Shown here: positions 26,865 to 60,346 of the stretch, one piece after another
Layout: every line of letters begins with the position of its first letter
Position numbering within the stretch: the stretch's first letter is position 1
Origin: a virus
Reading direction: 5' to 3' (one strand)
DNA length: 64,000 nt
Virus record (IMG/VR): IMGVR_UViG_3300026518_000008
Coordinates: 1 to 64,000 of that record
Made by a program: the position numbers and the translations under genes
Notes under the pieces: model-generated
What the model saw: the letters and a program-made list of their open reading frames with translations, nothing else
What the model was told of the DNA's origin: nothing
The model's database searches: none

Positions 26865-26939
26865 TGGCTGGGATGGAAGGTGTCGAACCTACACTTTACT
26901 GGATCAAAGCCAGTTGCACTGCCATTATGCTACATCCCA
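26865..26939 (-). tRNA. tRNA-Gln(TTG)
   Basis: TGGGATG/CATCCCA, ACTGG-CT TTG AT-CCAGT, GTTCGAC, GCCA. Confidence 0.9.
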
Positions 26940-26942
26940 ATA

Positions 26943-27027
26943 TGGAGGATATACTTGGACTTGAACCAAGATGAGTTTCACCTCGTCAGTTTAGCAAACT
27001 GATGCGATACCTTTACGCGATATATCC
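26943..27027 (-). tRNA. tRNA-Ser(GCT)
   Basis: GGATATA/TATATCC, TCAGT-TT GCT AA-ACTGA, long variable arm, GTTCAAG, CCA. Confidence 0.88.
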
Positions 27028-49332: not shown

Positions 49333-49407
49333 TTCCACACTATTTTTATATATCAACTGATGTATTTATTTATTAATATATCATTTTTTATATCAAAGGA
49401 CACATAT

Positions 49408-50472
49408 ATGTATTTAGTAAAATACTTTAAAGATGAGATAAGACGCAGATATTTTGTTGATAGTAATAACAATTATGCTGCAAATATGATAGTTGATGAG
49501 AGATGTATAGTTTCTACATTATATAGTAGAGATATGGTTCAAAGAGATCACTATGTTATATCAGAATGGTTTTCTAATAAATATGGAATTAGACAACTTC
49601 CATTCAAATTTATGCTTCAGACATTGAATATCAGTGATAAAAAACTAAAATCCCTGGTTCTTGCAGTGAAACGAAAAAGACTAGAATTTGTTTTTGCAGG
49701 ATTTGGAGGAACTGGTATGAATACTGCATATTGGTTACAGAAAATTCTTGACCATACAGGAGATGTATACTTATTTAATAGCGTACATGTTTACGATGAT
49801 GACGAGATTGAATTTTCAAATCTTTTTAGATTTCCACAGGATTTATCGTCATGTACAGAGAACAAGAAAGCATTTATGTATACTAATAAAAACTCACTTG
49901 GTAGAAAGTATTATAAAGTAGCAGATACAATTAAATTTGTAAATCCATCTATTGAATATAGATTTGCTAATGTAGAATTATTTGAACACACAGACTATAC
50001 ACATAGACTTTCGTTTGCAGACGATACTATTGTGTATGGAGCACCAGATCTTGCTACTCGAAAAGATGTTTCTCTTACTAATTGTAGATTCATAGCAGCT
50101 ACTCATGGGGGAAATTCTTGCTCTATGACAGTACAGCCAGACATTGATGAGAACTTACAGACAGAGGGATATGGTGTAATACACTTGAACACATTTTTCT
50201 GGAATCAACTCGCTATGGCTATTGGACTTTTAGAGTTCCTTGCGGAGGACGATATTCAACAGATAGAGACTACTGATATTAATTCAGATGGGACTCCTGT
50301 AATGAACCTTGATGGTACTACTTCTACAATACTTGCAGATGTGTCTAAATGGGATCAGGAAGGGCAAATATTTAAGTTCAGCTTTGAGGATTTTGTTGAC
50401 TCTGGTTCATTTGGTAAAGCTTCCAGAATTCTTGATTTTAATATTACTAAAGACAATGGAGGACGAGTATGA
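49408..50472 (+). CDS. ThiF/E1-like adenylyltransferase
   Basis: AGFGGTG, YDDDEIEFSNLFR, IVYGAPDLATR. Confidence 0.8.
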   Translation: MYLVKYFKDEIRRRYFVDSNNNYAANMIVDERCIVSTLYSRDMVQRDHYVISEWFSNKYGIRQLPFKFMLQTLNISDKKLKSLVLAVKRKRLEFVFAGFGGTGMNTAYWLQKILDHTGDVYLFNSVHVYDDDEIEFSNLFRFPQDLSSCTENKKAFMYTNKNSLGRKYYKVADTIKFVNPSIEYRFANVELFEHTDYTHRLSFADDTIVYGAPDLATRKDVSLTNCRFIAATHGGNSCSMTVQPDIDENLQTEGYGVIHLNTFFWNQLAMAIGLLEFLAEDDIQQIETTDINSDGTPVMNLDGTTSTILADVSKWDQEGQIFKFSFEDFVDSGSFGKASRILDFNITKDNGGRV

Positions 50473-51617
50473 TATCATTTCAAAAACAAACAAGCACAAT
50501 AGATCATGCTATCAAAAACACTGTTTTGGCTAAGTTAAATAGTGTTTTAGAGACATCTATGTCACATACAAATCCAGATTTATATAATCCATCATCTAGT
50601 CTTGGCAAATCATTGTATCCAGTAGATATGACGCATGGACTTAGTACAGAAATAGGAATGTGGAGCAATTCCATGAAAGACGAGAGTTCTGTGCTTATTG
50701 ATGCTATTGGTTCGGATACATTATCTTTTGGACCGGTTACACTGAGCGAGGGATTGTCATTGATAAAAAATGAAATTACTTCTGGAACTTTCTATGGTGT
50801 AGTAGCTGTTAATAGCTTGACAAATGAACGAATAAATCCACTACATCCACTGATTGCTAAAGAGATATCTGAGAACTGGGATATTTACAAGGATCAGAAG
50901 TTTAATTTTTATATCTTTTCTGGAAATTGGAGGGGAGACCCAGATGCTGACCTTGAGTTATACACAAATAGTATAGTGCAGCTTTTATCAGAATACGGAG
51001 AAAGACAACTAATTTCATATGTTTCATCTACACTTGCCGTTGTTAATAATGACATAGAGATACCTATAACATCAGATGAAAACGTTCAAGAAATATTGTA
51101 TAACTACATGGACGGAAAAAGCATAGAATTAGTAGATTCTACATTATTAAAATTACCGAATGGAAATTCGCCATATTTTATTGTACCAGTGCAAATTGTT
51201 AGCGACGGAATTGCTTATCCTTACTATGGAACTTCATTGTTGCAGCAAGACATTCGCAATAGTGAGGATAGTGAAACAGAAGATCTATGGGGTACAGATT
51301 TGTCACCTATGGGATCTGCAAATATTGGAAATAATACAACTAATCCGACAGCATCTGAATTTTTCTCTGTATGTACTGGAGGACATGGCGTCGACGATTA
51401 TGGTATGGCTACTATAAATCAGAGCAATCTTCAGTCTCCTATGAATTCTGAATGTTTATCTCCAGAATGGAGAGAATATGTAGCAGCTTGTCTCAACATT
51501 AGCTATGAGATATTTGACTCATTACTAGATTCCACTCCACAAAAAATACTTACTAGAGCAGATTTTGATACTATACCAGAATGGTTAGAACATTTATCTA
51601 CATTACATTTACATTAA
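50469..51617 (+). CDS. prokaryotic E2-like conjugating enzyme
   Basis: SANI...SVCTG then NLQSPMN resemble UBC HPNI...C and NxxSPxN; between E1 and JAB. Confidence 0.55.
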   Translation: MISFQKQTSTIDHAIKNTVLAKLNSVLETSMSHTNPDLYNPSSSLGKSLYPVDMTHGLSTEIGMWSNSMKDESSVLIDAIGSDTLSFGPVTLSEGLSLIKNEITSGTFYGVVAVNSLTNERINPLHPLIAKEISENWDIYKDQKFNFYIFSGNWRGDPDADLELYTNSIVQLLSEYGERQLISYVSSTLAVVNNDIEIPITSDENVQEILYNYMDGKSIELVDSTLLKLPNGNSPYFIVPVQIVSDGIAYPYYGTSLLQQDIRNSEDSETEDLWGTDLSPMGSANIGNNTTNPTASEFFSVCTGGHGVDDYGMATINQSNLQSPMNSECLSPEWREYVAACLNISYEIFDSLLDSTPQKILTRADFDTIPEWLEHLSTLHLH

Positions 51618-51629
51618 AGGATTGTACAC

Positions 51630-52913
51630 ATGGCTTATCATATAAATACATCTAGACACAACGCTACTCCAACTCAGAAGAATGCATCAGTTTGCTCTGT
51701 ACCAAAGTATGACTTTGTAGGAAAAATTCACACCACATCTACTGGTGATCTTTTTGGAGTGCTTTTACTACAGCAGGAAACTCTTGACGAGATATTCGAG
51801 CAGAGCGGACCACTTGCTGTATCGAATGAATTTCAGTTCCACTATACATCATTAGTTGGGAAACTTCAGAACCAGGGGCAGGAGCTCTATATTAGTATTC
51901 CACTTGTATGTTACAACTACAAACAGACGGTATCTGGAGCTCACATTGGATTCAACCTTGAGGACACTGAGACTATGTCAGATGATACTCTTGAGATCGC
52001 ACAGATGAAGGCTGCAGAATTTCTTAGTACAGATACTCGTACTCAGATAGAGTCTATCTTTGGAGAACTTGATTGGCATGTTGCTACACTACAGACTATG
52101 CACAGACATCCAGGAGGTTCATCTCAGGGATTCTCAAGTACAGATCTTATGACAGATCCAGACAGAGCTGGAATTGTATTTCCACTTAATGAGTCTATTG
52201 AGAAATCTATCAGTTTTTCATCTATTATGTATGTGCAGAATGGATCGTGTAGACTTGCTCATACTGAGGTTCGTACTGCACTTGGTTCAGCTTCAGAGAA
52301 GAGTGGAATACTATACAGCAATGGTAGATCTATTACTATTGTTGCTGGATATGATTCTACGCCTACAGAGCTTGATACTATGTTTGGCATACCTGGATAC
52401 ACATCTACAGATACTGTATATTTTGATGACATGCCTACCACTACAGATATACCTCAGCAACTTACATCTATAATGAGAGAGTCCTCTTTTAGGCCAGAGA
52501 TATTTATTGATGAAAATCATTTATCCACTGAGACTACTTACTATGGGAAGCAGAGAAAACCTTTGATTAAACAATCAGAATTTACAAAATCCACAGATAG
52601 CTTTCAAAATACTAACCAGCTGAGCTTATTTAGTAGAGGACTTGAAGATGACATCGTATTTGATCAAGATGAATTATATGAAGATTATATAGATCCATTA
52701 GATCAGGATTCATCTGGAATGTATACACAAAATCCATTTGAGCTTGATCATATGGACAGAGAGATACTTACAGATGCACTTAGAGATGAACTTGCAGATA
52801 TTACATATTGCGGAACCAAGAGTCATGTTTTCACAGAACGAGAGATTGCTCTCAAGCCTGAACATGAGATCTGGAGATTATCCAGAACTCACAAATTACT
52901 AAAACCACTATAG
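51630..52913 (+). CDS. JAB/MPN+ metallopeptidase
   Basis: NEFQ...QTVSGA...MHRHPGGSSQGFSSTD (E...HxH-x8-SxxD). Confidence 0.8.
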   Translation: MAYHINTSRHNATPTQKNASVCSVPKYDFVGKIHTTSTGDLFGVLLLQQETLDEIFEQSGPLAVSNEFQFHYTSLVGKLQNQGQELYISIPLVCYNYKQTVSGAHIGFNLEDTETMSDDTLEIAQMKAAEFLSTDTRTQIESIFGELDWHVATLQTMHRHPGGSSQGFSSTDLMTDPDRAGIVFPLNESIEKSISFSSIMYVQNGSCRLAHTEVRTALGSASEKSGILYSNGRSITIVAGYDSTPTELDTMFGIPGYTSTDTVYFDDMPTTTDIPQQLTSIMRESSFRPEIFIDENHLSTETTYYGKQRKPLIKQSEFTKSTDSFQNTNQLSLFSRGLEDDIVFDQDELYEDYIDPLDQDSSGMYTQNPFELDHMDREILTDALRDELADITYCGTKSHVFTEREIALKPEHEIWRLSRTHKLLKPL

Positions 52914-52923
52914 GACATATATT

Positions 52924-53814
52924 ATGGCTACAACATTTCAAACATTGTATGGTTCAGATGATTTGTTTTTTACACCAGAACACCAATTTGGTATACGACG
53001 TTCAGAATTAGCTGATGCAACATCTAATTCTGATACAACTACAGAAAATACATCTATTCCTGACCCAATTGATACTAACCAATCAGAACCAGGTGAGATG
53101 ATTCCGTATGACACTTCACGAGATATTACATCATTGATTACAGAATTTCATGATCATCATGACAGGCTAGAAGGTGATGCATATGTATTTGATGCAGAGA
53201 TGCTATCAAATACTAGACTCCAGAATTTCCTTATGACTATTGATCATAGGGCTAGACCAGAACAGAGAAAGATTACTATGCCAGATATGAGCAGAATTAT
53301 TGAGCATGGGCTATCTATGATTGTAGATGGATATGATCAACTTGAGTATAGAGACTGTTCTAAAGTATTTCATTTTAATAACGGAGATGTACTGCTCAGA
53401 GTATCTGGATTCATCAATAGAGCTACTGAAACTATTGAAATTATTCGTTATACGAAGAAATTCAAAGTAGACCGCATGATTGATGATGTCCAGGCAAGAC
53501 GAGTATTTGATTATTCGTTATATGCATCAGCATTTCTACTAGCATCAAGATATCCAGCTATTGGAACTATGATTAAAACAATTCATGAGCATTTTGGTGA
53601 ATTTCATATCACTGAGCATTTCCCGTATATATCCAGCAATAATACTATTGAGTCAATACTTGAGGCATATATATCTGATATCAATTCTGGAGAATTGCCA
53701 CCAGAGTGCGAGGACAAATGGACCACTCGGGCTGGAGTTAATTCTCGTTGTGAGAAATATTGTTCAGTTAAAGATATTTGTCCATTTTACACTCCTACTC
53801 ACGCTGGTTCTTAG
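52924..53814 (+). CDS. Cas4/PD-(D/E)XK-like protein with C-terminal Cys cluster, catalytic motif degenerate
   Basis: LPPEC...RCEKYCSVKDICPF. Confidence 0.5.
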   Translation: MATTFQTLYGSDDLFFTPEHQFGIRRSELADATSNSDTTTENTSIPDPIDTNQSEPGEMIPYDTSRDITSLITEFHDHHDRLEGDAYVFDAEMLSNTRLQNFLMTIDHRARPEQRKITMPDMSRIIEHGLSMIVDGYDQLEYRDCSKVFHFNNGDVLLRVSGFINRATETIEIIRYTKKFKVDRMIDDVQARRVFDYSLYASAFLLASRYPAIGTMIKTIHEHFGEFHITEHFPYISSNNTIESILEAYISDINSGELPPECEDKWTTRAGVNSRCEKYCSVKDICPFYTPTHAGS

Positions 53815-53820
53815 ATAGTA

Positions 53821-54256
53821 CAGCTGGGTGTCGTTTCAGTCGACTTCTTAAGTAGAAAGTGTTCTCCCCAGCACATGTATTAATTCATTTGCGAGATAAT
53901 ATTCGTATCCTGCTTAGTGTGCGTGGTAGATACACAGAGCATTTTTCCATTTGGCAACTATTTACCATTTGGAAGAACACTACAGAACCAGAGTGATGAT
54001 CATCCCACAGAGAACTCATAGGAGTTTTGTTTGGGTCGATTCATATCAGTCCCTCTAACCTTAGACAGGAAGAGAAAAGAATATGCGTGTTTAGTATCAG
54101 AATTTATGCGTTAAGAAAACTGAGATGTTAATTTGTGATATTGAGTTGTAACTGCAAAACAAAAATATTAATTGGGAATATTTATATTACTAGAACGAGT
54201 CAGTGTGGCATTGCGTCTACACATACAATTCTAGTCTCCAGAAAGATGCCCAGCTG
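53821..54256 (+). ncRNA. candidate large structured ncRNA (~435 nt)
   Basis: ends pair (CAGCTGGGTGTC-G-TTTC / GAAAGATGCCCAGCTG); several internal stems; no ORF. Confidence 0.6.
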
Positions 54257-54314
54257 GAGTAGCGATATGAGTCTATTTATATATACTTAGTATTCGCTAT
54301 ATATTTTTATATAT

Positions 54315-54392
54315 GTCTCAGCTAAACCCACACCTTATTTAAACATAGGATGGATAGCTTACTGGCAGTGCAAGTCTGTCCTGAGTACACCA
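54315..54392 (+). ncRNA. tRNA-like element without D arm
   Basis: GTCTCAG/CTGAG(T)AC acceptor, GGCAG-TGCAAGT-CTGTC T arm, ACCA end. Confidence 0.5.
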
Positions 54393-54546
54393 AAGTCTTA
54401 ATATATAATCTATTCTTGCAGAATACAGATACAACTAAACTGATTATATTTGTGGTAGTAGTATGCCGTGAGAATATAAAATATTGCCAATATTAATACT
54501 GCTATTAAGTTTTTAGTGTAACAACACGCCTATAACTATAGAACAT

Positions 54547-54656
54547 GAATCATTAGCTTACACATTGGTAAATCGGATCGGTATTTGTGGAACCAAGATT
54601 TCCTAAGGAGTGCATCCTTGTAGTTAAGACACTGGTTCGAGTCCAGTATGGTTCTC
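54547..54656 (+). ncRNA. enlarged tRNA-like element (His GTG-like loop)
   Basis: GAATCAT/ATGGTTC acceptor, ACTGG-TTCGAGT-CCAGT, extended anticodon arm, extra arm AAGGA-GTGCA-TCCTT, no encoded CCA. Confidence 0.55.
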
Positions 54657-54670
54657 TATAAACACTTTAT

Positions 54671-54702
54671 GTACCATTAGCTCAGTCTGGTAGAGCACTG
54701 TT
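54671..54702 (+). ncRNA. orphan tRNA 5' half
   Basis: GTACCAT-TA-GCTC-AGTCTGGTA-GAGC-A; does not pair with the adjacent CGGGCCC 3' end. Confidence 0.65.
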
Positions 54703-54709
54703 TCTATTA

Positions 54710-54869
54710 GTATAGAACGACGGTTCGAATCCGTCCGGGCCCACCATATGTGCCATTAAATTTGTATCGGTAGCATTATACGCGAGATAATTCGCAAAGG
54801 ACCAGAGTTCAATTCTCTGGATGGCACACCACATTAGGGCCCGTAGCATGAGCGGTTCATGCACTATAC
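54710..54869 (+). tRNA. circularly permuted tRNA-like gene 1 (3' half 54710-54746, 5' half 54837-54869)
   Basis: CGGGCCC-ACCA pairs 7/7 with downstream GGGCCCG; GTATAG pairs 6/6 with downstream CTATAC. Confidence 0.75.
54750..54831 (+). ncRNA. tRNA-like element nested in the linker of permuted gene 1
   Basis: GTGCCAT/ATGGCAC-ACCA, CAGAG-TTCAATT-CTCTG, non-canonical D and anticodon arms. Confidence 0.6.
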
Positions 54870-54925
54870 ATAATTTATTTTAAAAACCAGTGACTAGTAT
54901 ATACAATAGACTTAGCACCATAACC

Positions 54926-55005
54926 AAGTTTTAGGTCGGAAGTTCGAGTCTTCCATCGGGCGCCATTTATATGCCCGATTAGCTCAGTTGGTAGAGCAGA
55001 AATTT
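54926..55005 (+). tRNA. circularly permuted tRNA-like gene 2 (3' half 54926-54965, 5' half 54973-55005)
   Basis: ATCGGGC-GCCA, linker TTTATAT, GCCCGAT (7/7); canonical T and D arms; AAGTTTT pairs GAAATTT. Confidence 0.8.
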
Positions 55006-55015
55006 AAACATGAAT

Positions 55016-55058
55016 TACAGGGACAAATACGGTATATTTTGTCCCTGTACCTTTTTTT
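55016..55058 (+). terminator. intrinsic terminator closing the RNA locus
   Basis: TACAGGGACAAA/TTTGTCCCTGTA 12-bp stem, CC, T7. Confidence 0.75.
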
Positions 55059-55111
55059 AGAGAACTCACGGAGTTTTCTCAAATTAGGTACAGCACAATA
55101 AAGGAATTAGA

Positions 55112-56404
55112 ATGAGACAAGATATAGAGGAACGCATTAATGCTACTAAAGTTCCATACAAAATATATGCAGAGTTTGTCGAAGACAAAGCTGCAGAACA
55201 ATTTGCAAATTGCCTAGAGCAGGAGTCTGTAGTGCAAGGAGCTCTCATGCCAGACACACATGCCGGTTACGTTGCACCTATCGGTTCTGTACTAGCTACA
55301 AATGGTACTATTTTCCCATCTTTCGTTGGATACGACATCGGATGCGGCATGAGCTCTATCCGTACTAATATCCAATACAAATCAGTCTCAACAGAACAAC
55401 TAGAGGCTATTAAAAATCAGATTCTTAGAGATATTCCTATTGGTTTTGAGAGACATTCTAAACCTAAGACACATATCGTAGAAAGATTTCCTATGACACC
55501 TTTTGCAAAGGACGTGTTACGCACCACTGGTTCTTATCAGTTAGGCACACTTGGCGGAGGGAATCATTTCCTTGAAATAGGATATGACAATGACGAATAT
55601 TTAAATATAGTTGTTCACTCAGGTTCGCGTGGTGTTGGACATAAAATTGCCACTAAATATATGAAAGAGGCTGCAATTCAATCAGTAGACGAATCTAGAT
55701 ATAGAAAAGAATTTGATGAGAAAAATAAAGCTTGGCTAAATAAAATTTTAAACAGCAAATCATCTCCAGCTAATGACAAATTACAGGATAGATACGACAA
55801 AGCTAAAACTGAATTTACTTATCGTCGCACCAGAGCTAGAGTATCGAATATTGAGGATGCGTATCCATTAGATAACACATCAGAACCAGGGATGGGATAC
55901 ATGCAGGATATGAACATGGCATTGGAATTTGCTTTAGAGAATAGAGAGCTAATGATAGGTAGATCAGTAGCTGCTATTGCTAAAGTTCTTGGCCAGGATA
56001 TTTCTACTTCTCGCTTTATCAATCGAAATCATAACCATGCAGAACTAGTAGATGGTAGATGGATACATCGCAAGGGAGCCACTCAGGCTGCAGATGGTAT
56101 GATTGGAGTTATACCAGGAAACATGGTAGATGGCTCGTTCATAGTTAGATGTAGAGGTAGCTCAGATTCTATGAATTCATCATCTCATGGAGCAGGTAGA
56201 GTTTTATCTAGACGAAAAGCCAAGGATACTCTTGACCTAGAGGAGTTTATTTCTAGCACAGCTCACCTAATAGCGAACCATTCTGATTCAAACCTAGACG
56301 AATCTCCACTTGCATACAAAAATATTTTTGATGTAATGGAACAGCAGTCAGACTTGGTTAAGACACTAGACAGAATTGTACCAATTATAAACATTAAAGG
56401 GTGA
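55112..56404 (+). CDS. rtcB: RtcB RNA 3'-phosphate/5'-OH ligase
   Basis: MPDTHAG, VGYDIGCGM, LGTLGGGNHFLE, HSGSRG, HNH, HRKGAT, HGAGR, DESPLAYK. Confidence 0.96.
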   Translation: MRQDIEERINATKVPYKIYAEFVEDKAAEQFANCLEQESVVQGALMPDTHAGYVAPIGSVLATNGTIFPSFVGYDIGCGMSSIRTNIQYKSVSTEQLEAIKNQILRDIPIGFERHSKPKTHIVERFPMTPFAKDVLRTTGSYQLGTLGGGNHFLEIGYDNDEYLNIVVHSGSRGVGHKIATKYMKEAAIQSVDESRYRKEFDEKNKAWLNKILNSKSSPANDKLQDRYDKAKTEFTYRRTRARVSNIEDAYPLDNTSEPGMGYMQDMNMALEFALENRELMIGRSVAAIAKVLGQDISTSRFINRNHNHAELVDGRWIHRKGATQAADGMIGVIPGNMVDGSFIVRCRGSSDSMNSSSHGAGRVLSRRKAKDTLDLEEFISSTAHLIANHSDSNLDESPLAYKNIFDVMEQQSDLVKTLDRIVPIINIKG

Positions 56405-59097: not shown

Positions 59098-59453
59098 TTA
59101 TATACAGACACATTCGTAGAAAGAGTTGTGATTTTTTCGACACAAAAGAGTATACGATTGCAGCAGAACTTAGAGACGGAGCATACTATATCGGCATTGC
59201 TACATGTTCACCACGAGATACATATTGCAAAAAAACTGGACGAGAGATTGCTAGATCTAGACTTAAGTCATCAGAGCAGAAGATCACACTTGATGACCTC
59301 AAATTGGAGGTAGATATTTCAGAGTGCAATATATTTACACATGAGTATACCAGCAATTTCATTGGATCACTATCTATAGAGGATTTCTCTATACACCATG
59401 TCTTATCACTTGCTCATGATACATTTATTGATAACAACAGTAGTGTATTATGA
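59094..59453 (+). CDS. hypothetical phage protein
   Basis: GIATCSPRDTYCKKTGREIARSR. Confidence 0.65.
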   Translation: MIIYRHIRRKSCDFFDTKEYTIAAELRDGAYYIGIATCSPRDTYCKKTGREIARSRLKSSEQKITLDDLKLEVDISECNIFTHEYTSNFIGSLSIEDFSIHHVLSLAHDTFIDNNSSVL

Positions 59454-60346
59454 AAAAACCTATAAACAATTATGAGACAGGAGATGGTATCATTCCAGAT
59501 GGAATGATAAAACTAAGTCCTTCAAGATTTGAGAGATTCTTCTCGAAACCACATGAGTGGTTCAGAGAATTGATCATGCAGGAGGGTGGGTTCGATGGTA
59601 ATTCTGGGTCCAACATTGGGAATATTATCCATGCTACTGCAGAGGCAGAGGCTACAGGTCAGACACTTACTGATGACGAGATTCAGGAGTTCATAGACAG
59701 CTTGCCAGAGTTAGTTGACGAGAAACATCCATGGATGAATCTTGAGCATCATGTCATTAGAGCAGCTTATCCAGACATGCAGGAGCTTATTCGCGAGTTT
59801 GTAAGAGAGAATCTACCTACATCTACAGAGGGATATATCTGGAGACAGATTACTCCACGAATTGTAGTTGCTGGTTCTTACGATGCATACAGAGTGAATC
59901 CTATGACAGGAAATTATATTGTGACCGACTACAAGACTACTGGAGAGAAATTACCTCCGAAGTCAATGAGTTACTCTCACAAATTGCAGCTTTATATGTA
60001 TGCTTGGATGCTTCGCAAACAGGGCATTATGGTAGACGCTATCGAAATAGTATATATTACTAGATTCCATTCAGGGGCACCAGCTAAAATTTCAGAGAAG
60101 ACAGGGAAACTTGGAAAGCCTGGAAGAGATTATCCAGCTACGCTTACACCGATTATGTACGAATTTACAGACAGAGATATGACTTTTATATCTGACTTGA
60201 TAAAACTTGGAGCTGAGTCACTTGAGTATTTCATTGATCATCCAGAGGCAGCATACATTATTTTTCGAGACTACCGTCTCAAAGGAACAGACTTCTCCAG
60301 ATACTTGACAGATATAGTGGACGGCGGAGTTTACGACGATTTTTAG
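59450..60346 (+). CDS. PD-(D/E)XK exonuclease
   Basis: LSPS, GNIIH, E, GSYDA, VTDYKT, QLYMY. Confidence 0.85.
   Translation: MKKPINNYETGDGIIPDGMIKLSPSRFERFFSKPHEWFRELIMQEGGFDGNSGSNIGNIIHATAEAEATGQTLTDDEIQEFIDSLPELVDEKHPWMNLEHHVIRAAYPDMQELIREFVRENLPTSTEGYIWRQITPRIVVAGSYDAYRVNPMTGNYIVTDYKTTGEKLPPKSMSYSHKLQLYMYAWMLRKQGIMVDAIEIVYITRFHSGAPAKISEKTGKLGKPGRDYPATLTPIMYEFTDRDMTFISDLIKLGAESLEYFIDHPEAAYIIFRDYRLKGTDFSRYLTDIVDGGVYDDF

What the first reader, a model, noticed from the sequence alone, without database searches (positions are those of the whole stretch)
54926..55005. Compact circularly permuted tRNA immediately upstream of rtcB
Seen: AA-GTTTT-AGGTC-GGAAG TTCGAGT CTTCC-ATCGGGC-G-CCA, 7-nt linker TTTATAT, then GCCCGAT-TA-GCTC AGTTGGTA GAGC-A-GAAAT-TT. 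Every element has canonical length; TT (32-33) and AA (37-38) flank the break, so only the anticodon is undefined. The topology equals the YrlA tRNA-like module, but NCCA is retained at the proper position and I see no Ro-binding GNCGAA stem. Inference: the anticodon would be set by the cleavage/ligation site, or the RNA works as a two-piece tRNA.
Basis: partly seen in the sequence, partly recalled or inferred. Interest (0 to 1): 0.9.

Follow-up and report, generated by a model that had tools for sequence, protein, structure and literature searches.

The report
Back-to-front tRNA mimic beside RtcB
Just ahead of its RNA-repair ligase gene, a phage encodes a small RNA that is a complete transfer RNA written back to front with only the anticodon missing. 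It is most likely a tRNA look-alike of the bacterial Y-RNA (YrlA) type, not a working tRNA.

Summary
54926-55005 folds on its own into a permuted cloverleaf. When rotated and given any three-base anticodon, ARAGORN calls it a canonical 76-nt tRNA. In genomic order no tRNA finder sees it.

It is the last unit of an array. A second permuted unit (54710-54869) has a whole tRNA-like gene nested in its linker, and further aberrant tRNA-like units lie upstream. The array ends in a strong terminator 55 nt before an intact rtcB.

Rfam YrlA matches only the tRNA-like core (33.9 bits; threshold 69). There is no Ro-binding motif. The 93-kb, about 85% complete phage record has no Ro60, DUF2828, DUF7873, splicing endonuclease or CCA-adding enzyme.

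CCA followed by a short AT spacer is the punctuation of this phage's real tRNA-Ser/Gln genes. RNase P cleavage into a two-piece, CCA-ended mimic is therefore plausible, with M. smegmatis YrlA as precedent.

I found the same topology in about 30 other phage loci, with Ro60, with DUF7873 or with neither, and usually without RtcB. Earlier notes of this scan report many more on other DNA.

Verdict: a real, partner-less variant of a known kind. It is most likely an anticodon-less tRNA decoy. RtcB-made tRNAs are unsupported. No orthologue could be fetched, so there is no covariation test.

The parts
54879..54907 (+). Promoter-like site (TTTAAA, 17 nt, TACAAT) in the 20% G+C spacer ahead of the unit. 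A start near 54914 would make the unit its own roughly 140-nt transcript.
   Evidence: Consensus scan only. Four sites were found in the region against 5.2 expected, so this is weak evidence. G+C profile.
54926..54937 (+). AA (positions 37-38), GTTTT (39-43, the 3' strand of the open anticodon-type stem) and AGGTC (a canonical 5-nt variable loop with G46 and C48).
   Evidence: Sequence. Pairs with 54999-55005 in the fold of the unit alone and in the rotated tRNA.
54938..54954 (+). T arm: GGAAG / TTCGAGT / CTTCC.
   Evidence: Aligned to the YrlA T arm.
54955..54965 (+). Acceptor 3' strand ATCGGGC, discriminator G and CCA.
   Evidence: 7/7 Watson-Crick with 54973-79.
54966..54972 (+). 7-nt AT linker TTTATAT. 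Read as an inter-tRNA-type spacer, with predicted RNase P cleavage after T54972.
   Evidence: The TAT|G context recurs before three acceptor 5' strands (family D1). It matches the CCA-TAT spacer of the phage's real tRNAs. Cleavage itself is inferred.
54973..54998 (+). Acceptor 5' strand GCCCGAT, U8 A9, D arm GCTC/AGTTGGTA/GAGC and A26.
54999..55005 (+). GAAAT (27-31) plus TT (32-33), the 5' strand of the open stem. It can also pair with 54596-54602.
   Evidence: for the local pairing. for the alternative long-range pairing in the 471-nt fold.
55016..55059 (+). Intrinsic terminator: a 12-bp perfect stem (55016-27 / 55038-49) followed by a run of seven T.
   Evidence: Inverted repeat I7 and folds. 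The simple scanner missed it because the loop is 10 nt.
55112..56404 (+). rtcB, RNA 3'-phosphate/5'-OH ligase, 430 aa. The GGGNHF motif and the SSSHGAGR histidine are conserved.
   Evidence: Pfam RtcB 4.7e-81. PHROG tRNA splicing ligase 3.6e-104. Invariant columns.
54710..54869 (+). Second permuted unit (B). Order: GTATAG, AAC, T arm 54719-35, CGGGCCC-A-CCA 54736-46, a 90-nt linker, GGGCCCG 54837-43, TA, D arm 54846-62, A, CTATAC 54864-69.
   Evidence: Called a 75-nt tRNA by ARAGORN after rotation. tmRNA_permuted 23 bits, sub-threshold.
54750..54831 (+). Normal-order tRNA-like gene (C) nested in the linker of B. Acceptor GTGCCAT/ATGGCAC, A, CCA; 6-bp T stem; 4-bp stem with a 6-nt loop in place of the anticodon arm.
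   Evidence: Not called by ARAGORN or Rfam tRNA.
54547..54697 (+). A long aberrant tRNA-like unit (GAATCAT 54547-53 ... T arm 54631-47, ATGGTTC 54648-54) followed by an orphan 5' half (GTACCAT, TA, D arm; 54671-97). ATGGTTC can pair with either 5' strand, so a third permuted unit is ambiguous.
   Evidence: (YrlA 30 bits at 54628-96).

Best explanation
The element is a phage gene for an anticodon-less tRNA mimic. It is a Ro-independent relative, in design, of the tRNA-like module of YrlA Y RNAs, and the last unit of an array of such mimics. It is not a decoding tRNA.

Shown: the RNA has every helix and tertiary-contact nucleotide of a class I tRNA in circularly permuted order. Its chain ends lie where the anticodon loop would be, and a terminator follows.

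Inferred, step 1: it folds into the tRNA L-shape, with acceptor and T arm stacked and a D/T-loop elbow.

Inferred, step 2: the host treats the 7-nt linker as an inter-tRNA spacer. RNase P cuts before G54973 and exonucleases trim back to GCCA. The product is a two-piece molecule with an authentic 5'-phosphate / CCA-3' acceptor end and an open lower half.

Inferred, step 3: because nothing can be decoded, the RNA works by occupying proteins that read the upper half or overall shape of tRNA. My favoured reading is a competitive decoy for host tRNA-targeting anti-phage nucleases or acceptor-end toxins, while the adjacent RtcB reseals the tRNAs that still get cut. The same role was proposed in print for the YrlA tRNA-like domain in the rsr-yrlBA-rtcBA operon (PMC7790460).
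For: Exact permuted cloverleaf and a canonical tRNA after rotation. Three clustered hits in 93 kb against 0.2 per window in shuffles. The YrlA model aligns to the tRNA-like core only. The helices are intact and G+C-rich in a 36% G+C genome. The 471-nt array folds with z -5.8. CCA plus a TAT-type spacer is the same punctuation as at the phage's real tRNA-Ser/Gln genes. A terminator lies directly behind the unit. RNase P cleavage and a CCA end are documented for the 7-bp-acceptor YrlA of M. smegmatis (PMC4201824). The same topology is kept in other phages. One compensatory acceptor change separates L082/L085 (CTTCCCA/TGGGAAG) from L111 (CTTCCCC/GGGGAAG). About 20 further modules came from one pattern scan. 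Tandem pairs lie behind DUF7873 genes. The decoy idea for YrlA is in print (PMC7790460).
Against: No orthologue of this array could be obtained, so there is no covariation or conservation evidence for this locus itself. There is no expression, processing or binding datum. The closing stem is weak (3 A-U and 2 G-U pairs, plus 2 A-U). The promoter call is at chance level. No partner protein was identified. RtcB is absent from all 17 other phage records with such modules that could be searched. 44 of 170 phage RtcB loci lie within 3 kb of ordinary tRNA genes. The adjacency may therefore only reflect general tRNA-RtcB synteny. A young relic of tandem tRNA duplication would look the same.
Confidence: 0.5

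Rival explanations
1. Evolutionary debris. Tandem duplication of phage tRNA genes, followed by loss of the outer halves, left junction fragments that happen to be complementary because they come from two copies of one gene. They are transcribed or not, but have no function.
For: Tandem duplication with loss of the outer halves is the accepted origin model for permuted tRNA genes (my own knowledge of the C. merolae literature, not checked here). The acceptor strands GAATCAT, GTACCAT and GTGCCAT at 54547, 54671 and 54750 are paralogous and all can pair with ATGGTTC or ATGGCAC, which shows serial duplication. CCA and the TAT spacers could simply be inherited from the phage's tRNA gene style. No orthologue shows conservation.
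Against: Two units (B and D) have flawless 7/7 acceptor, T and D helices and all tertiary nucleotides, in an AT-rich genome where unselected DNA should drift. The same break point, the anticodon loop, is used each time, and a terminator closes the array. The topology is conserved, with a compensatory change, in other phages.
Confidence: 0.17
2. It is the RNA subunit of a ribonucleoprotein whose protein partner was not recognised. The partner could be a host Ro60/Rsr, a divergent Ro60-like phage protein, or a DUF7873-type partner lying in the missing 15% of the genome. On this reading it is a Y-RNA-like tether rather than a free decoy.
For: The topology is that of YrlA. Units B and D are two tandem permuted modules 219 nt apart, both with NCCA and ending at a terminator. 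This is the layout I found downstream of DUF7873 genes in phages, with spacing of 150-220 nt and NCCA kept in about half of the loci. The record is only about 85% complete. Earlier notes of this scan report Ro60-like proteins that the TROVE model misses.
Against: There is no TROVE, DUF2828 or DUF7873 match in 93 kb, although the DUF2828 control rang nowhere. No GNCGAA motif or long basal stem is present. The upstream gene is a Cas4-like PD-(D/E)XK nuclease, not DUF7873. The ATCGT-type tracts seen in some DUF7873 RNAs are absent.
Confidence: 0.1
3. A cis-acting leader of rtcB. A broken-tRNA look-alike followed by a terminator would let RtcB, or another tRNA-binding factor, bind its own leader and tune read-through or translation of rtcB. 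This would be substrate-mimic autoregulation.
For: The order is promoter-like site, mimic, terminator, 55 nt, ribosome-binding site, rtcB. The RNA ends sit where an anticodon-nuclease-cut tRNA has its ends, which is the shape of RtcB's substrate. A second inverted repeat (55045-67 / 55071-93) overlaps the terminator's 3' arm and reaches towards the ribosome-binding site (I1).
Against: I found no antiterminator alternative for the terminator's 5' arm. The other RtcB-linked example (L150) has its modules 1.6 kb away, with tRNA genes and ORFs in between. Most modules of this topology lie in phages without RtcB.
Confidence: 0.08
4. A true permuted or split tRNA gene. RNase P opens the acceptor end, the flanks are trimmed by a nuclease that leaves 2',3'-cyclic phosphate and 5'-OH ends, and the adjacent RtcB closes the anticodon loop. 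The product would be a decoding tRNA whose anticodon depends on the cut sites.
For: After rotation the unit is a flawless tRNA with U32 U33 and A37 A38 already in place. RtcB is the ligase that joins permuted and split tRNAs in archaea and eukaryotes (established knowledge; PMC3400036 reviews tRNA ligases). The gene lies 107 nt from rtcB.
Against: No anticodon is encoded. No splicing endonuclease, archease, bulge-helix-bulge motif or known self-cleaving ribozyme is present. The 3' flank ends in a terminator with a 3'-OH. All anticodons that could be assembled from the flanks begin with A34. Unit B has a 3-nt variable loop, and unit C a 6-nt loop. Similar modules elsewhere occur without RtcB.
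Confidence: 0.05

Closest known systems
YrlA (Y RNA-like A; Rfam RF02553), especially the M. smegmatis form (Chen et al. 2014, PMC4201824; structure preprint 10.1101/312249)
   Same: The tRNA-like module is in the order T arm, acceptor helix closed by a linker, then D arm. There is no anticodon. The M. smegmatis RNA has a 7-bp acceptor, is cut by RNase P and carries CCA. In Salmonella the RNA is encoded next to rtcB. A decoy role against an anticodon nuclease has been proposed (PMC7790460).
   Different: This element has no Ro60-binding stem or GNCGAA motif and the genome has no Ro60 gene. It scores half the Rfam threshold, on the core only. GCCA is fully encoded, and the linker looks like an inter-tRNA spacer. 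The variable loop and anticodon-type stem are canonical. The unit is part of an array that includes a nested tRNA-like gene.
Circularly permuted tRNA genes of Cyanidioschyzon merolae and other algae or archaea, matured through a circular intermediate (recalled from the literature; tRNA ligases reviewed in PMC3400036)
   Same: The 3' half lies upstream of the 5' half, and the two are joined across the acceptor end by a short linker that follows CCA or the discriminator. An RtcB-type ligase is the joining enzyme in those systems.
   Different: Those genes encode the whole anticodon loop and a bulge-helix-bulge motif at the termini, and they need a splicing endonuclease. Here the anticodon, the motif and the endonuclease are all missing.
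Two-piece (permuted) tmRNA of alpha-proteobacteria, cyanobacteria and others (Rfam RF04321 tmRNA_permuted)
   Same: A bacterial precedent for a permuted gene in which T arm, acceptor and CCA precede the acceptor 5' strand. The intervening segment is excised, giving a two-piece RNA with a chargeable CCA end.
   Different: This element has no tag reading frame, pseudoknots or G3-U70 alanine identity. ARAGORN finds no tmRNA. The Rfam hit is on unit B only, at 23 bits against a threshold of 47.
Tandem permuted tRNA-mimic RNAs downstream of DUF7873 (PF25283) genes in phages. I found no paper describing them. They were seen here and in earlier notes of this scan.
   Same: Two permuted modules lie 150-220 nt apart in one ORF-free stretch. 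NCCA is often retained, most often in the second module. They often lie in or near phage tRNA clusters.
   Different: No DUF7873 gene is found in this genome record. The upstream gene is a Cas4-like nuclease. The linkers here are a bare 7-nt spacer and a nested tRNA-like gene rather than hairpins. The array is followed by rtcB.

Membership tests
YrlA (Rfam RF02553) | tRNA-like module in the order T arm, linker-closed acceptor helix, D arm | tested here: met
   Aligned to model positions 23-86.
YrlA (Rfam RF02553) | Score at or above the curated gathering threshold (69 bits) over the full model | tested here: not met
   33.9 bits. Model positions 1-22 and 87-114, the basal Ro-binding stem, are unmatched.
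YrlA (Rfam RF02553) | Ro60-binding helix with GNCGAAN0-1G (PMC4201824) | tested here: not met
   No GNCGAA occurs on either strand between 51173 and 55177, so none in the intergenic region.
YrlA (Rfam RF02553) | Ro60/Rsr (TROVE) gene nearby or in the genome | tested here: not met
   No PF05731 match in the 93-kb record, with positive controls ringing. No DUF2828 match either, but that control was silent. The record is about 85% complete, and a host-encoded Ro60 cannot be excluded.
Canonical tRNA | Recognised as a tRNA in genomic order, with an anticodon loop | tested here: not met
   Not reported by ARAGORN at default or relaxed settings, nor by Rfam tRNA. No anticodon is encoded.
Canonical tRNA | Cloverleaf with canonical arm lengths and tertiary nucleotides | tested here: met
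   The rotated sequence is called a 76-nt tRNA with any inserted triplet.
Permuted tRNA gene (C. merolae type) | 3' half upstream of 5' half, joined across the acceptor end by a short linker | tested here: met
Permuted tRNA gene (C. merolae type) | Complete anticodon loop and bulge-helix-bulge motif formed by the transcript termini | tested here: not met
   The flanks give only AAGUUUU/GAAAUUU followed by a 4x4 internal loop. Three anticodon bases are missing.
Permuted tRNA gene (C. merolae type) | tRNA splicing endonuclease available | tested here: not met
   No PF01974 match in the phage record, with archaeal controls ringing. Bacterial hosts lack this enzyme (established knowledge).
Permuted tRNA gene (C. 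merolae type) | Circular intermediate and mature joined tRNA | not testable with these tools
   Needs RNA from infected cells.
Two-piece tmRNA | Tag reading frame, pseudoknots, alanine identity; detection by ARAGORN or Rfam | tested here: not met
   ARAGORN reports no tmRNA. The tmRNA_permuted hit is on unit B only, 23 bits against 47. The third acceptor pair of D is C3-G70.
DUF7873-linked tandem tRNA mimic (not in the literature searched) | Two permuted modules 150-220 nt apart in one ORF-free unit | tested here: met
   The T arms of B and D start at 54719 and 54938, 219 nt apart. Comparison loci.
DUF7873-linked tandem tRNA mimic (not in the literature searched) | DUF7873 (PF25283) gene immediately upstream | tested here: not met
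   No PF25283 match in the genome at E<=1. The upstream 296-aa ORF has no Pfam hit, no similarity to the L081 DUF7873 protein, and looks Cas4-like.

The most novel reading that the evidence does not exclude
The array is a working split-tRNA system of a bacterial virus. RNase P opens each permuted unit at the acceptor end, a host or phage nuclease trims the open lower ends, and the adjacent RtcB closes the anticodon loop. This would produce decoding tRNAs, possibly with an anticodon chosen by the cut sites. It would be the first permuted-tRNA maturation pathway outside archaea and eukaryotes.
Probability: 0.05. Interest if true: 0.95.

Novelty: new variant of a known kind. Interest (0 to 1): 0.55.

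Why it matters
If the RNA is made and processed as proposed, tRNA mimicry of the Y-RNA type does not need Ro60. Phages would then carry free-standing, CCA-ended tRNA upper halves next to their tRNA repair ligase. That makes a standing proposal directly testable: that such mimics are competitive decoys for tRNA-cleaving or tRNA-modifying defence enzymes (made for YrlA in PMC7790460). The test system would be small, one RNA, one ligase and a host nuclease. Together with the roughly 30 similar modules seen here in unrelated phages, it points to a large class of phage non-coding RNAs. I did not find that class in Rfam 15 or in the papers I could search.

Tried and rejected
1. Orthologues of the array. 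RtcB-anchored searches of IMG/VR and JGI metagenomes gave 170 loci with at most 60% RtcB identity, and none has the array. The upstream 296-aa protein has no relative in IMG/VR. blastn against INPHARED matched only part of rtcB.

4. A covariance model of the module was abandoned. MAFFT cannot align the variable linkers, and such a model would not separate families. I used explicit scanners instead.

5. Isotype ancestry of the halves against 462 phage tRNAs was indecisive.

6. True YrlA: rejected on score, motif and Ro60.

7. tmRNA: rejected.

8. Known ribozymes or other Rfam families in 53500-55300 at E<=10: none.

9. ATCGT-type tracts as a signature of the DUF7873 RNAs occur in only some of those RNAs, so they are of no use as a membership test.

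10. The 11-nt repeat AACCAAG(A/T)TTT (54591 and 54922) and other short repeats are at chance level for a 1.3-kb region (my estimate).

11. I could not retrieve Burroughs and Aravind 2016.

Full report
THE OBSERVATION. The window is the first 64 kb of a 93,163-bp IMG/VR phage record (36% G+C, about 85% complete by CheckV). In order they are: AA, GTTTT, the variable loop AGGTC, a 5-bp T stem with loop TTCGAGT, the acceptor 3' strand ATCGGGC, G73, CCA, a 7-nt AT linker, the perfectly complementary 5' strand GCCCGAT, U8 A9, a 4-bp D stem with loop AGTTGGTA, A26, GAAAT and TT. The tertiary-contact nucleotides of a class I tRNA are all in place: U8, A14, G15-C48, G18G19, A21, G46, T54T55C56 and A58.

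The 80 nt fold by themselves into this permuted cloverleaf, closed by a 7-bp AAGUUUU/GAAAUUU stem (-22.6 kcal/mol, z -2.4). When I joined the 5' half, any triplet and the 3' half in a script, ARAGORN called a canonical 76-nt tRNA at default settings. In genomic order ARAGORN (default and relaxed) and Rfam tRNA see nothing.

A scanner written for the permuted order finds only three hits in the whole genome, all within 54631-54997. Shuffled windows gave 0.2 hits on average.

SURROUNDINGS. The unit is the last element of a 1.3-kb ORF-free region (53815-55111).

- Directly upstream lies a second, equally clear permuted unit, B. Its T arm is at 54719-35, followed by CGGGCCC-A-CCA. GGGCCCG-TA-D arm lies at 54837-62, and a 6-bp closing stem pairs GTATAG 54710-15 with CTATAC 54864-69. 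After rotation it is also called a tRNA.
- Its 90-nt linker holds a complete normal-order tRNA-like gene, C (54750-54831). C has a perfect acceptor, ACCA, a 6-bp T stem, and a 4-bp stem with a 6-nt loop instead of an anticodon arm.
- Further upstream are a long aberrant tRNA-like unit (54547-54654) and an orphan 5' half (54671-97). The strand ATGGTTC (54648-54) can pair with GAATCAT, GTACCAT or GTGCCAT, so a third permuted unit is ambiguous.
- The 471-nt array folds far better than shuffles (z -5.8).
- A 12-bp perfect hairpin plus seven T (55016-59) terminates the array 55 nt before rtcB.
- RtcB (55112-56404) is intact, with the catalytic motifs conserved. rIIA and rIIB-like genes follow.
- The gene upstream of the region (52924-53814) looks like a Cas4-type PD-(D/E)XK nuclease.
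- A promoter-like site lies at 54879-54907, in a 20% G+C spacer. The scan is at chance level there, so this is only a hint.

The phage's two genuine tRNA genes (Ser and Gln, 26865-27027, minus strand) encode CCA and are separated by TAT. The array uses the same punctuation: ACCA-TAT-G at 54743-50, and TAT|G before three acceptor 5' strands (family D1). I therefore read the linker as an inter-tRNA spacer rather than as a loop meant to stay closed.

TESTS AGAINST KNOWN FAMILIES. Rfam YrlA aligns to 54930-55002 (33.9 bits) and to 54628-54696 (30 bits). It does so only over model positions 23-86 of 114, the tRNA-like core, and at half the gathering score of 69. The Ro60-binding motif GNCGAA is absent from the whole intergenic region. 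The genome record has no TROVE/Ro60, no DUF2828 (control silent) and no DUF7873. It also has no tRNA splicing endonuclease, no archease and no CCA-adding enzyme. ARAGORN finds no tmRNA. The permuted-tmRNA model touches only unit B, at 23 bits against 47. No ribozyme or other Rfam family appears at E<=10.

So the element has the topology of the YrlA tRNA-like module. It fails three of the four defining features of that family, and it fails the defining features of permuted tRNA genes and of two-piece tmRNA.

COMPARATIVE EVIDENCE. I could not find an orthologous array. 170 phage and metagenome RtcB loci (at most 60% identity) lack it. The upstream protein has no relatives in IMG/VR. There is therefore no covariation test for this locus.

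The topology itself is recurrent in other phages.

- Two pattern scans of IMG/VR for a T loop followed closely by a canonical D arm gave 148 loci. My scanner found about 25 compact permuted modules in them that ARAGORN does not call tRNA.
- In three 310-kb jumbo phages the module replaces the anticodon loop of an outer tRNA-like RNA. The closed acceptor shows a compensatory change: CTTCCCA/TGGGAAG against CTTCCCC/GGGGAAG.
- Of the 18 records with modules that I tested for all three genes, 2 have Ro60, 3 have DUF7873 and none has RtcB. Four of the eight records at least 90% complete have none of the three.
- A lead from earlier notes of this scan held up on my own data. The DUF7873 gene L081:12062-12859 (PF25283, E 9e-70) is followed by two tandem permuted modules. 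14 of 18 DUF7873 loci show one or more modules downstream, and the tandem pairs are typically 150-220 nt apart. About half of these loci retain NCCA in at least one module.
- Units B and D of the window are 219 nt apart and both keep NCCA. The layout is the same although the protein is missing.
- One other RtcB locus (L150) has two permuted modules 1.6 kb upstream of the ligase, among tRNA genes.
- 44 of 170 RtcB loci have ordinary tRNA genes within 3 kb. Adjacency of tRNA-like genes to rtcB is therefore a common phage arrangement, not a specific signal.

HOW IT MOST LIKELY WORKS. Shown: a complete tRNA body in permuted order with no anticodon, followed by a terminator. Everything else is inferred.

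- The RNA folds into the tRNA L-shape.
- RNase P cuts before G54973. The determinants are present: a 7-bp acceptor stacked on a 5-bp T stem, U at -1, and GCCA. Exonucleases then trim the 7-nt spacer back to CCA, as at the phage's real tRNA junction.
- M. smegmatis YrlA, the one YrlA with a 7-bp acceptor, is processed in just this way in vivo (PMC4201824).
- The product is a two-piece, CCA-ended tRNA upper half on an open stem. It cannot decode.
- It can be bound by anything that reads the tRNA upper half or overall shape.

I commit to a decoy or competitor role against host tRNA-targeting defence enzymes, with RtcB next door repairing what is still cut. Hughes et al. proposed the same for the YrlA tRNA-like domain in the rsr-yrlBA-rtcBA operon (PMC7790460). 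My confidence that it is a functional tRNA mimic rather than a tRNA is about 0.5 for the whole statement. It is higher for 'not a decoding tRNA' and lower for the decoy role specifically.

RIVALS.
- Relic of tandem tRNA duplication, 0.17. It fits the paralogous acceptor strands. It fits poorly with flawless helices in an AT-rich genome and with conservation of the design elsewhere.
- RNA subunit of an unrecognised protein partner (host Ro60, a divergent Ro-like protein, or DUF7873 in the missing 15% of the genome), 0.10.
- Cis-acting, substrate-mimic leader of rtcB, 0.08. The order of elements fits, but I found no antiterminator.
- True permuted tRNA closed by RtcB, 0.05. There is no anticodon, no endonuclease, no processing motif, and the 3' end is a terminator's 3'-OH.

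NOVELTY AND VERDICT. The published anchor is YrlA. This element is a partner-less, fully canonical, CCA-encoding, arrayed variant beside a phage rtcB. I found no description of Ro-independent permuted tRNA mimics of phages in the papers searched. Earlier notes of this scan, however, list many such RNAs on other DNA, so this locus is one more case of a recurrent and apparently uncatalogued class, not a singular oddity. I rate it a new variant of a known kind, with interest 0.55.

Noticed in passing
window 53816-54261: An ORF-free stretch of about 440 nt closed by a long terminal stem (TAGTACAGCTGGGTGTCGTT / AAAGATGCCCAGCTGGAGTA). It folds to -134 kcal/mol together with its flanks and heads the tRNA-like array. 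No Rfam family matches at E<=10. In other phage loci ROOL RNA lies next to permuted modules (L226 8971-9618, L312 3148-3722).
   Followed up: partly
window 54315-54392: Another tRNA-shaped element: a T-arm-like hairpin GGCAG/TGCAAGT/CTGTC followed by CTGAGTAC-A-CCA, with one long hairpin in place of the D and anticodon arms. It is preceded by a 16% G+C spacer holding a promoter-like site (54276-54305).
   Followed up: partly
window 55045-55093: A 23-nt inverted repeat (83% complementary) overlaps the terminator's 3' arm and T run and ends just before the rtcB ribosome-binding site. It might affect rtcB translation in read-through transcripts.
   Followed up: no
window 52924-53814: The gene just upstream of the RNA region has no Pfam or PHROG hit. 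By language-model features and predicted structure it resembles phage PD-(D/E)XK / Cas4-type nucleases, with a Cys-rich C-terminus. A second PD-(D/E)XK gene lies at 59450-60346.
   Followed up: partly
window 49360-52913: Three tightly packed genes (370, 382 and 427 aa) have no Pfam or PHROG match at my thresholds. First-stage notes read them as an E1/E2/JAB triad. I did not test this.
   Followed up: no
L082 4440-4660 (-), L085 8800-9000 (+), L111 13040-13260 (-): A 'two-headed' tRNA in three roughly 310-kb jumbo phages. The outer tRNA-like RNA (TCCAGCG ... CGCTTGGA-ACCA) carries, in place of its anticodon loop, a permuted module whose acceptor is closed by a tetraloop. One compensatory acceptor change separates the phages. 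These complete genomes have no Ro60, DUF7873 or RtcB.
   Followed up: partly
L150 612-1140: A metagenome contig with an RtcB (44% identity) carries two permuted modules (665-732 and 822-888, neither with CCA) and one aberrant long tRNA-like unit. Three normal tRNAs lie 1.4-1.9 kb upstream of the ligase.
   Followed up: partly
L109 1366-1466 (-), L307 and L317: These permuted modules share a 3' tail AAUACCCGA(A)U. L109 aligns to the full YrlA model at 39.5 bits, below threshold. They may be true phage Y RNAs, but the records are fragments and Ro60 could not be checked.
   Followed up: no
L330 / L070 (IMGVR_UViG_3300037247_001890, 169 kb): One phage carries both a DUF7873 gene with a TCCA-retaining permuted module downstream and an RtcB gene, about 100 kb apart.
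   Followed up: no
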